This document shows, in pieces, positions 51,175 through 52,415 of a DNA stretch of 64,000 nucleotides. Source of the stretch: Octopus vulgaris (lineage: Eukaryota); contig OX597832.1 of NCBI GenBank assembly GCA_951406725.2, positions 42,284,001 to 42,348,000 of the forward strand, given 5' to 3'. Made by a program: the position numbers and the translations under genes. The stretch's first letter is position 1. The number at the start of each line of letters is the position of its first letter. The notes beneath the pieces were generated by a model. The model was not told the DNA's origin and made no database searches. It worked only from the letters and a program-made list of their open reading frames with translations.

Positions 51175-51400
51175 AGGGAGAGTTTACGAAAAAAAAGCAA
51201 AAGACGAAGAGAGGTGGTGTACAAAACAAACAGATGTATTAGTATAACGCTCAGGAATAGAAAAAGTCTTTTATGTTTGGAGCCTACGCTCTTCTACAGA
51301 AACGGACACAGAAAAAACAAGGAGAGAAGAAATGAGAGAAAAAAAGGAGAGGAAAAAAGGAGAGAAACAAGGAGGGAAAAAAAGGAGAGAAAAATATATG
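51175..51400 (-). mobile_element. E2 PLE 3' terminus with hammerhead-like motif at 51269-51303
   Basis: TTT-CTGTAGA-A-GAGC gtag GCTC-CAAA-CA-TA-AAA; abuts (TA)n; same strand as and just 3' of the PLE ORF. Confidence 0.7.
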
Positions 51401-51507
51401 CTTTTTACATACATTCAACTATTTTTAAAGGCAAGGATAAATACATGCAATACAATAAAGAAAAATTAATGTAAAATAAGCAGATTGTATCTATAGAGTT
51501 TCTAATA

Positions 51508-52415
51508 TTAATTGTTTTCACAAAACTGCGAAAATTAGCATTTTAGCCTGTGGTTGCATCTAATAACTCTTTCAGAGTGTCTATTCACAAGTTCATTAGT
51601 GCACATTAAAATGCATAGTACCGCCTCAGAATAGAGATTGCAAGATCTCGAAAATATATTGTACCGATATGCACTTTCTTTTTTATTATTGTACATGTGA
51701 TGGTGTATTGCACTTTCCCTTCGAGCTTTCAGATCAGGTCAGCGTGTGACGTGCAGTGTCTCTTCTTAATGTTCTTAAACCATGCAATGTGGTTCGAATA
51801 TCGGTGTTTGAAGCAATCGGCAACCGCACAAATATATACAAATGCATCTGCTCGCGTTCTAACTGTAAATCTGTACATCACATTCTGAAGAAGGCATTAA
51901 TTTCCCAGGGGAAATACGTTCCTGTCGTTACAATTACAGTTCCTTTCCACATCATTTTCTATACAGTGTCAGCCTATACGTTTTCTATTTCTCATTTTTC
52001 CTTTATTGTTTCAGTAGTTACTATTATTACTGCTTATGTACCCTTCATTGCTACCCTTGTTGCTGTTTCTAGTACTAATATTATTGAGATTCCCAGTGTT
52101 CCCAATATTACTCATATTTCTGCTATCATCCATATTATTACTTTTATCAGAACTATTTGGACGGGCTTCCTTACTTTCTTCTTTACTATTGCAATCCTTA
52201 TTTGAAGGCTCATTTCTACTTTTACCTCCACTAATGGTGTTAGCGATCCCTTGGTTTAGCTTCTTATTATTGAGTTTATGAATGTGGTATTCTAAGTTAT
52301 TAGATGTTGCGTTCGTTAATTTTCAGCGTATATCTATTAAAGATATTCTGGTACTTTTTAGGTTTAGAAAAATACTTAACCAATGTATGTGCCATTTTGT
52401 ATGTAGTGATAGGCT
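51508..52415 (-). pseudogene. Decayed Neptune-type Penelope-like element: RT thumb, N/S-rich linker, Cys motif, GIY-YIG endonuclease
   Basis: LVKYFSKPKKYQNIFNRYTLKI...HIHKLNNKKL...NCNCNDRNVFPLGN*CLLQNVMYRFTV..FVYICAVADCFKHRYSNH..F...RSCNLYSE...LVNRHSERVIRCNH; stops and frameshifts. Confidence 0.85.

What the first reader, a model, noticed from the sequence alone, without database searches (positions are those of the whole stretch)
51175..52415. Neptune-type PLE linked to a hammerhead with a non-canonical CUGUAGA core
Seen on the minus strand in order: RT thumb, linker, CNC..PL..C motif, GIY-YIG, 3' UTR, hammerhead-like motif (51269-51303), tail, (TA)n. A second copy of the motif is at 40499-40533. 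Each copy has different private defects, and their consensus is TTT-CTGTAGA-A-GAGC-GTAG-GCTC-GAAA-CG-TH-AAA. U at position 6, normally an invariant A, is shared by both. Inference: a PLE lineage with a fixed A6U core variant, and the likely mobilising class for the short microsatellite-embedded elements.
Basis: partly seen in the sequence, partly recalled or inferred. Interest (0 to 1): 0.75.

Follow-up and report, generated by a model that had tools for sequence, protein, structure and literature searches.

The report
Altered hammerhead fixed in active retrotransposon
About 25,000 copies of a young jumping-gene lineage in this animal genome end in a hammerhead-ribozyme-shaped motif with U in place of the near-universal core A6, and the motif likely stays under selection although its cutting is untested; the broken gene beside it in this window belongs to a different, older family and is most likely a chance neighbour.

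Summary
There are 18,333 exact copies of this stem II, only 226 with A6. Across six subfamily clusters only N7 and H17 change in the core. Both stems covary against sister and outgroup motifs, which carry A6. That ORF is an old, broken Hydra-clade PLE (CxCx5C linker), not Neptune. The true partner is a different Neptune-type PLE. Its youngest family has open RT-EN frames flanked by two identical CUGUUGA motifs 4.5 kb apart, and 8 of 30 long CTGTAGA copies carry a sister ORF. Both window copies have extra core defects (G12C; C3G). Cleavage is untested. Insertion ends show no pile-up at the predicted cut, and 5' ends cluster about 100 nt upstream of it. I found no A6U PLE hammerhead in print, but could not read Lünse 2017. 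Verdict: new variant of a known kind.

The parts
51176..51394 (-). 5'-truncated 3' terminus (pseudo-LTR end) of the CTGTAGA subfamily of the U6 Neptune-type PLE: pyrimidine-rich leader, hammerhead motif and about 95-nt tail
   Evidence: 93.8% to L166, whose upstream carries the Neptune-type RT/EN
51268..51303 (-). minimal type I hammerhead-like motif: stem I GTTT / AAAG side, core CTGTAGA + bulged A, stem II GAGC-GTAG-GCTC; this copy has G12C (51279) and G16.2A (51274), so it is predicted inactive
51077..51175 (-). (TA)n at the 3' junction, the usual insertion target of the family
51535..52415 (-). unrelated old Hydra-clade PLE ORF fragment (distal thumb, N-rich linker, CxCx5C, degenerate GIY-YIG, C-terminal CxxC and CxH), broken by stops and a frameshift
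51395..51534 (-). start of the Hydra element's own AT-rich 3' UTR, ending in a short CATATA run where the U6 terminus begins
40405..40590 (-). second U6 terminus, from an older subfamily (core GTGTAGA with C3G, H17 = C); ends approximate, between (GT)n and (TA)n
   Evidence: 80.6% to L166
21256..21294 (-). sister element with a canonical A6 core (CTGACGA, 3-nt loop II); further copies at 41321-41347 (-) and 44318-44344 (+) with CCGACGA

Best explanation
The motif is the pseudo-LTR hammerhead of a young, high-copy Neptune-type Penelope-like retrotransposon lineage that has fixed U at core position 6; it likely remains a slow, dimer- or protein-assisted self-cleaving RNA (untested), and the window copy is a truncated end that most likely landed by chance in the TA-rich 3' UTR of an old Hydra-clade fossil. 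Shown: the U6 state, its linkage to a Neptune-type RT-EN ORF elsewhere in the genome, the non-linkage to the window ORF, stem covariation, and A6 in sister and outgroup families. Inferred steps: the GIY-YIG endonuclease nicks (TA)n; RT starts about 106 nt downstream of the predicted cut and copies leftwards; most products stop 75-120 nt upstream of the cut, the likely RNA 5' end, giving the abundant ~200-nt microsatellite-embedded elements. Some products continue, by transfer to the homologous downstream repeat or round a circular RNA, and give partial tandems and small arrays. The RNA that is copied usually still holds the uncut motif, so cleavage, if it occurs, is slow or serves RNA processing rather than priming.
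For: U6 fixed: 226 of 18,333 have A6; 22 of 23 core-bearing copies picked by the tail alone have T6; loose patterns give 24,986 U6 against 8,588 A6 (controls 93 and 140). Partner: 30 of 30 top EN loci have CTGTTGA 798-890 nt downstream on the same strand, and 7 of 7 long loci have two identical motifs 4,478-4,529 nt apart, 5 of them with 1,179-1,214-codon open frames. Pfam RVT_1 and a weak GIY-YIG hit. 8 of 30 long CTGTAGA copies have this ORF type upstream, 0 of 30 the window ORF. Non-linkage. Constraint: across six cluster consensuses 0 of 33 motif columns other than 6, 7 and 17 vary, against 65 of 132 flank columns; N7 takes all four bases and H17 takes A/U/C, the two positions the hammerhead consensus leaves free. 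7 of 8 stem pairs show two-sided changes in 13 hand-picked motifs. Outgroup: 22 of 80 metagenome loci had a motif, all A6. Ends.
Against: No cleavage measured. None of 70 copies with the 5' UTR starts at the predicted cut (one at +2; 62 read on upstream). Only 1 of 19 tail-only copies starts at the cut (by eye). Folding predicts that U6 favours an inactive G5-C15.2 pairing (P = 0.98, 0.56, 0.53, 0.15 in four U6 subfamilies, against at most 0.06 with A). A6 changes are deleterious in Mg2+ (PMC3088659 section 8; PMC7151607). The 0-of-33 count is partly circular, because most of those columns were in the search pattern; one search is the independent check. 7 of 29 Hydra relatives have some piece of a U6-type terminus within 1.5 kb, more than the exact-pattern density predicts, though at scattered positions and strands (only L034 sense and downstream, a 55-nt tail piece). 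Neptune assignment rests on motifs and a by-eye comparison, not a tree. Rfam gave no hammerhead hit.
Confidence: 0.6

Rival explanations
1. Same element and same chance adjacency, but U6 has switched catalysis off. The motif now folds into a locked hairpin and is kept as a binding or promoter element for the element's own protein or polymerase, so this lineage transposes without a working ribozyme.
For: Predicted U4-G5-U6 pairing with A15.1-C15.2-G16.2. No insertion ends pile up at the cut. 44 of 78 copies have 5' ends in a 31-nt window upstream of the motif. PMC11167929 (passages): hammerhead mutants did not impair insertion in vitro and uncut RNA was the main substrate. Naiads spread without canonical hammerheads (PMC8557442 passages).
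Against: The only core positions that change between subfamilies are the two the catalytic consensus leaves free (N7, H17), while G8, G12, A13, A14 and U16.1 stay fixed. A hairpin role would not need that pattern. The pairing is weak in the U6G7 subfamily (P = 0.15). Lack of cut-site ends is also reported for a canonical PLE hammerhead.
Confidence: 0.32
2. One reading: the window ORF and the U6 terminus are one Neptune element.
For: They are adjacent, in the same orientation and in PLE order. 7 of 29 ORF relatives have a terminus fragment within 1.5 kb.
Against: 0 of 29 and 0 of 29 linked copies. ORF relatives are 69.5-78.5% identical while terminus relatives are 93-98%. The ORF has Hydra motifs and no similarity to the real partner (best E = 1.9). 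ORF relatives share their own AT-rich UTR.
Confidence: 0.03
3. U6 is a neutral founder mutation in a dead motif, amplified because the lineage burst recently.
For: The youngest family is 99-100% identical, so a recent burst did occur.
Against: U6 also dominates an older flank group (87 of the first 100 rows, hand count) and clusters whose flanks differ by up to 27%, with no other core change fixed.
Confidence: 0.05

Closest known systems
Minimal type I hammerheads of metazoan PLEs (Cervera and de la Peña 2014, PMC4209133), especially the Acropora digitifera Neptune motif in Fig. S3
   Same: Short stem I, bulged nucleotide after A9, G10.1-C11.1, 4-bp stem II ending GCUC, palindromic CG at 15.2-16.2, UH site, one copy in each pseudo-LTR.
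   Different: U at position 6. The Fig. S3 rows I read (supplement parts 1-2 of 3) all have A6; the core variant reported there is U3-A8.
Natural A6C hammerhead of phage Bcep176 (Perreault 2011, PMC3088659; Naghdi 2020, PMC7151607)
   Same: Natural substitution at position 6; low activity in Mg2+, rescued by Mn2+.
   Different: That is a single phage sequence with C. This one has U, is a minimal dimer-type motif, and is fixed in about 25,000 copies of a mobile lineage.
Neptune clade PLEs (as described in Craig 2021, PMC8557442; Neptune1_Ap in Fig. S7)
   Same: For the true partner P0034: DKG, YIDD, CX4CxxC linker, CCHH GIY-YIG at the C-terminus, partial tandems, inverted 5' pieces, (TA)n targets; 50 of 88 residues identical to Neptune1_Ap in the DKG block (by eye).
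   Different: U6 hammerhead; long pyrimidine-rich 3' UTR of about 850 nt. No tree was run against named references.
Hydra clade PLEs (Craig 2021, section 11, Fig. S7)
   Same: For the window ORF: WYNP..F/IFNR block, CxCx5C(PL..C) linker, no CCHH, C-terminal CxxC and CxH.
   Different: Old and broken, with an N-rich linker expansion; RT not recovered; its own hammerhead not found. Hydra hammerheads listed in File S2 have A6 cores.
Non-LTR retrozymes (PMC7229834; bioRxiv 10.64898/2026.07.22.740005)
   Same: Non-coding 447-616-nt tandem units with one hammerhead each, derived from a PLE end (L325, L326, L330, L342, L361, L376).
   Different: Minimal U6 motif; each array has its own junction, five of them joining to the same site 96 nt upstream of the predicted cut.

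Membership tests
PLE minimal hammerhead | C3 U4 G5 A6 N7 G8 A9 box | tested here: not met
   U6 in place of A6; only 226 of 18,333 have A6; other positions met in the subfamily consensuses
PLE minimal hammerhead | G12 A13 A14 A15.1, palindromic 15.2-16.2, U16.1 H17 | tested here: met
   GAAA-CG-TH in the family; window copy 1 has G12C and G16.2A
PLE minimal hammerhead | Stems I and II, bulge after A9, G10.1-C11.1 | tested here: met
   7 of 8 pairs with two-sided changes, 94.2% of cells paired, 13 hand-picked motifs
PLE minimal hammerhead | One motif in each pseudo-LTR flanking an RT-EN ORF | tested here: met
   7 of 7 long loci, L155-L161
PLE minimal hammerhead | Self-cleavage at H17 | not testable with these tools
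   only assembled contigs were available; genomic ends show no pile-up at the site
Rfam hammerhead families | Covariance-model match | tested here: not met
   no hammerhead hit up to E = 10 on L155:4500-4720 or window 51190-51400; I did not test whether these models detect canonical minimal PLE motifs
Neptune (window ORF) | CX2-5CxxC linker and CCHH in the GIY-YIG domain | tested here: not met
   CNC-x5-C-PL in relatives L032 and L040 (third Cys is F in the window); no CC inside the GIY-YIG core
Hydra clade (window ORF) | CxCX5C linker, no CCHH, C-terminal CxxC and CxH | tested here: met
   against PMC8557442 section 11 and Fig. S7
Hydra clade (window ORF) | RWK and DKT RT motifs | tested here: inconclusive
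   RT region not present in the window or in the 9 relatives inspected upstream
Hydra clade (window ORF) | Canonical hammerhead at its own 3' end | tested here: inconclusive
   not found; the canonical motif in L032 lies in a separate inverted insertion
Neptune (true partner P0034) | RT with DKG, C-terminal GIY-YIG with CCHH, CX2-5CxxC linker | tested here: met
   PADKGG, YIDD, C-SRPR-C-RT-C, YCISCSLC..YIGQT..EH..H
Neptune (true partner P0034) | RT phylogeny with named Neptune, Nematis and Poseidon references | not tested
   reference sequences were available only as supplement text; by-eye identity to Neptune1_Ap 50 of 88

The most novel reading that the evidence does not exclude
The dominant retrotransposon lineage of this genome runs on a re-tuned hammerhead: U6 locks the lone RNA in an inactive hairpin and allows cutting only in a dimer, with the element's protein or with a different metal, so the A6U change acts as a regulatory switch deciding between cut and uncut RNA and helped this lineage outnumber its A6 sisters three to one.
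Probability: 0.2. Interest if true: 0.8.

Novelty: new variant of a known kind. Interest (0 to 1): 0.52.

Why it matters
Whether PLE hammerheads must cleave for transposition is open. This genome offers a natural pair: a very young, intact, high-copy lineage with U6 and sister families with canonical A6 on nearly the same scaffold. A cleavage assay on that pair tests the question directly. If U6 cleaves, the hammerhead core consensus is wider than current descriptors, which would miss about 25,000 motifs in this genome alone. If it does not, a highly successful PLE keeps a non-cutting ribozyme under selection, which points to a structural role.

Tried and rejected
Protein search with the window ORF (residues 112-208, longer proteins): 5 candidates, none significant. 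Pfam on window ORF pieces: nothing relevant. Rfam: only microsatellite-driven miRNA hits among the 150 listed for the window, and no hammerhead in the two targeted scans. My idea that cluster 35 is an ancestral A6 subfamily was refuted: 87 of the first 100 rows have T6 and 4 have A6. My idea that the canonical hammerhead 1 kb downstream in L032 belongs to the Hydra ORF was rejected, because it sits in a separate inverted insertion. My idea that the gap in the L325 unit is a spliced intron was rejected: it removes the start codon and does not begin with GT (read). Expression: no RNA holder listed; four contig runs laid on L155 cannot show ends, strand or cleavage. The first tandem comparison was spoiled by the low-complexity tract and was redone. 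The result (1.0 substitutions within a locus against 4.1 between loci; 6 of 5,040 permutations) may only reflect sub-lineages, so it is not used as proof of circles. Earlier-findings look-ups returned nothing. Literature searches gave no A6U PLE hammerhead; the one 'A6U' hit concerns twister ribozymes. Lünse 2017 (PMC5785218), the paper most likely to list such a variant, was not held; part 3 of the Cervera supplement and the bioRxiv supplements were not seen.

Full report
Observation. On the minus strand the window holds a broken GIY-YIG PLE ORF at about 52415-51535, an AT-rich stretch, a pyrimidine-rich leader from 51394, the motif at 51303-51268, a tail to 51176 and (TA)n. A second motif has C3 at 40530. 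Both have U6. Copy 1 also has G12C and G16.2A; copy 2 has C3G. Three sister termini with an A6 core lie at 21288, 41347 and 44318. The genome G000 is 2.8 Gb; a UniRef Octopus bimaculoides protein is the closest named hit to the partner endonuclease (69% over 55% of the query), so an octopus host is inferred.

U6 is fixed, and N7 is free. The pattern with positions 6 and 7 open has 18,333 exact matches and 0 control matches; only 226 have A6. Among 93 fetched copies the cores were TT 36, TA 21, TC 20, TG 13 and three others (two listed A6 rows were counted in a separate set). Of 30 copies picked by the tail alone, 23 carry the core and 22 of these have T6. Looser patterns give 24,986 U6 and 8,588 A6 motifs (controls 93 and 140); most listed A6 motifs belong to sister families with a 3-nt loop II. 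I first read cluster 35 as an A6 subfamily, but 87 of the first 100 rows of its flank pattern have T6 and 4 have A6 (hand count).

The ORF link fails. The 29 best non-self copies of the terminus are 93-98% identical. They stop matching at 51328-51394, and most of them begin with their own 5' sequence after a microsatellite. The 29 best non-self relatives of the ORF are 69.5-78.5% identical. None continues into the terminus, and they share a different AT-rich UTR. Against this reading, 7 of the 29 have a terminus fragment within 1.5 kb, but at scattered positions and strands; only L034 has one sense and downstream, a 55-nt tail piece. L032 has two other insertions in the TA runs of the same UTR. 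The window junction lies at a CATATA run, so insertion into a TA target is the simplest account (inference).

The window ORF is Hydra-clade. Relatives read CNC-x5-C-PL..C, carry C-terminal CxxC and CxH motifs and a WYNP/IFNR block, and lack CCHH. These are the Hydra features in Craig 2021 (PMC8557442: passages, section 11, supplement File S2 and searched rows of Figs S2 and S7). The Hydra hammerheads listed there have A6 cores. The window ORF has no similarity to the real partner (best E = 1.9).

The real partner. L084 shows an endonuclease frame, an 850-nt UTR and the U6 motif in line. That endonuclease finds 17,491 candidates; the 150 scored are 99-100% identical without stops. All 30 loci fetched have CTGTTGA 798-890 nt downstream on the same strand. 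All 7 long loci have two identical motifs 4,478-4,529 nt apart, and 5 have open frames of 1,179-1,214 codons. P0034 has DKG, YIDD, a CX4CxxC linker and a CCHH GIY-YIG, and by eye matches Neptune1_Ap at 50 of 88 residues. No tree was run. For the window's own CTGTAGA subfamily, 30 copies picked by upstream sequence (one is the query locus) have T6 in 29. Eight have this ORF type upstream on the same strand, and none hits the window ORF.

Ancestry and constraint. Of 80 metagenome loci related to this endonuclease, 22 had a detectable motif and all have A6 (59 had over 250 nt downstream). Most match the Acropora Neptune motif in Cervera 2014 (PMC4209133: main text parts 1-2 of 4, supplement parts 1-2 of 3), so A6 is ancestral (inference). 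Across six cluster consensuses, 0 of 33 motif columns other than 6, 7 and 17 vary, against 65 of 132 flank columns. This is partly circular, because the pattern fixed most of those columns; one search is the independent check. In 13 hand-picked motifs, 7 of 8 stem pairs change on both sides. Rfam finds no hammerhead.

Does it cut? This is not shown. For cutting: the positions that vary are the two the catalytic consensus leaves free. Against: folding predicts that U6 favours a G5-C15.2 hairpin (P = 0.98, 0.56, 0.53, 0.15, against at most 0.06 with A). Natural A6C is slow in Mg2+ and rescued by Mn2+ (PMC3088659 section 8; PMC7151607 part 1 of 4). Of 172 copies holding the 5' UTR start I fetched 70: 62 read on upstream through the predicted cut, 6 begin 2-83 nt downstream, 2 were unplaced, and none begins at the cut. 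One of 19 tail-only copies begins at the cut (by eye). By contrast, 44 of 78 aligned copies end within a 31-nt window 75-118 nt upstream of the cut, and five short tandem arrays join different downstream points to one site 96 nt upstream. This suggests an RNA 5' end there and uncut templates (inference). Frangieh 2024 reports that uncut RNA is the main substrate and that cleavage needs protein for a Poseidon element with an intact core (PMC11167929, passages), so this footprint does not separate slow from dead.

Novelty. Seven paper searches found no A6U PLE hammerhead. Lünse 2017 was not held and could contain it; I know it only from a reference list and from recall. Other papers seen: PMC6765202, PMC11662667 and PMC7229834 (passages) and bioRxiv 10.64898/2026.07.22.740005 (part 1 of 5).

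Verdict. U6 is a real, lineage-wide core variant in a young Neptune-type PLE; the adjacency in this window is most likely chance. New variant of a known kind, interest 0.52.

Noticed in passing
L361 (G000:C8:18599000-18605000, minus strand); also L325, L326, L330, L342, L376: Retrozyme-like tandem arrays (units of 447-616 nt, up to five U6 motifs, units identical apart from a 1-nt indel in L361) made of the pseudo-LTR, tail and part of the 5' UTR. Five arrays join to the same site 96 nt upstream of the predicted cut.
   Followed up: partly
L381 (G000:C6:117387000-117396900): Three 5' UTR starts about 4.47 kb apart: a three-unit tandem of the full element.
   Followed up: no
window 21256-21294 (-), 41321-41347 (-), 44318-44344 (+): Sister short elements with an A6 core and a 3-nt loop II; no P0034-like ORF was found next to them in the 29 loci checked, so their autonomous partner is unknown.
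   Followed up: partly
L032, minus strand, about 1,050 nt downstream of the Hydra ORF match: A separate inverted PLE-end insertion with a canonical core and a palindromic stem III; part of its tail matches window 41974-42055.
   Followed up: partly
rows (older flank group): 8 of the first 100 copies have C at position 6, more than have A; this could be transition decay or a small C6 branch.
   Followed up: no
L280 and L281: Two U6 copies with a different stem II and loop (GTGC-TTCG-GCTC), a possible further subfamily.
   Followed up: no
window 52322-52011 (-): The Hydra family has an Asn/Ser-rich linker expansion of about 100 residues between thumb and endonuclease, shared by its relatives.
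   Followed up: no
L026, L124, L187, L210: Another, more distant GIY-YIG/RT PLE family (27-32% to the U6 partner) is present in the genome.
   Followed up: no
sequencing runs: Runs under five organism labels hold 72-84% of the sampled words of the young element, so it may be shared by close relatives; not examined further.
   Followed up: partly
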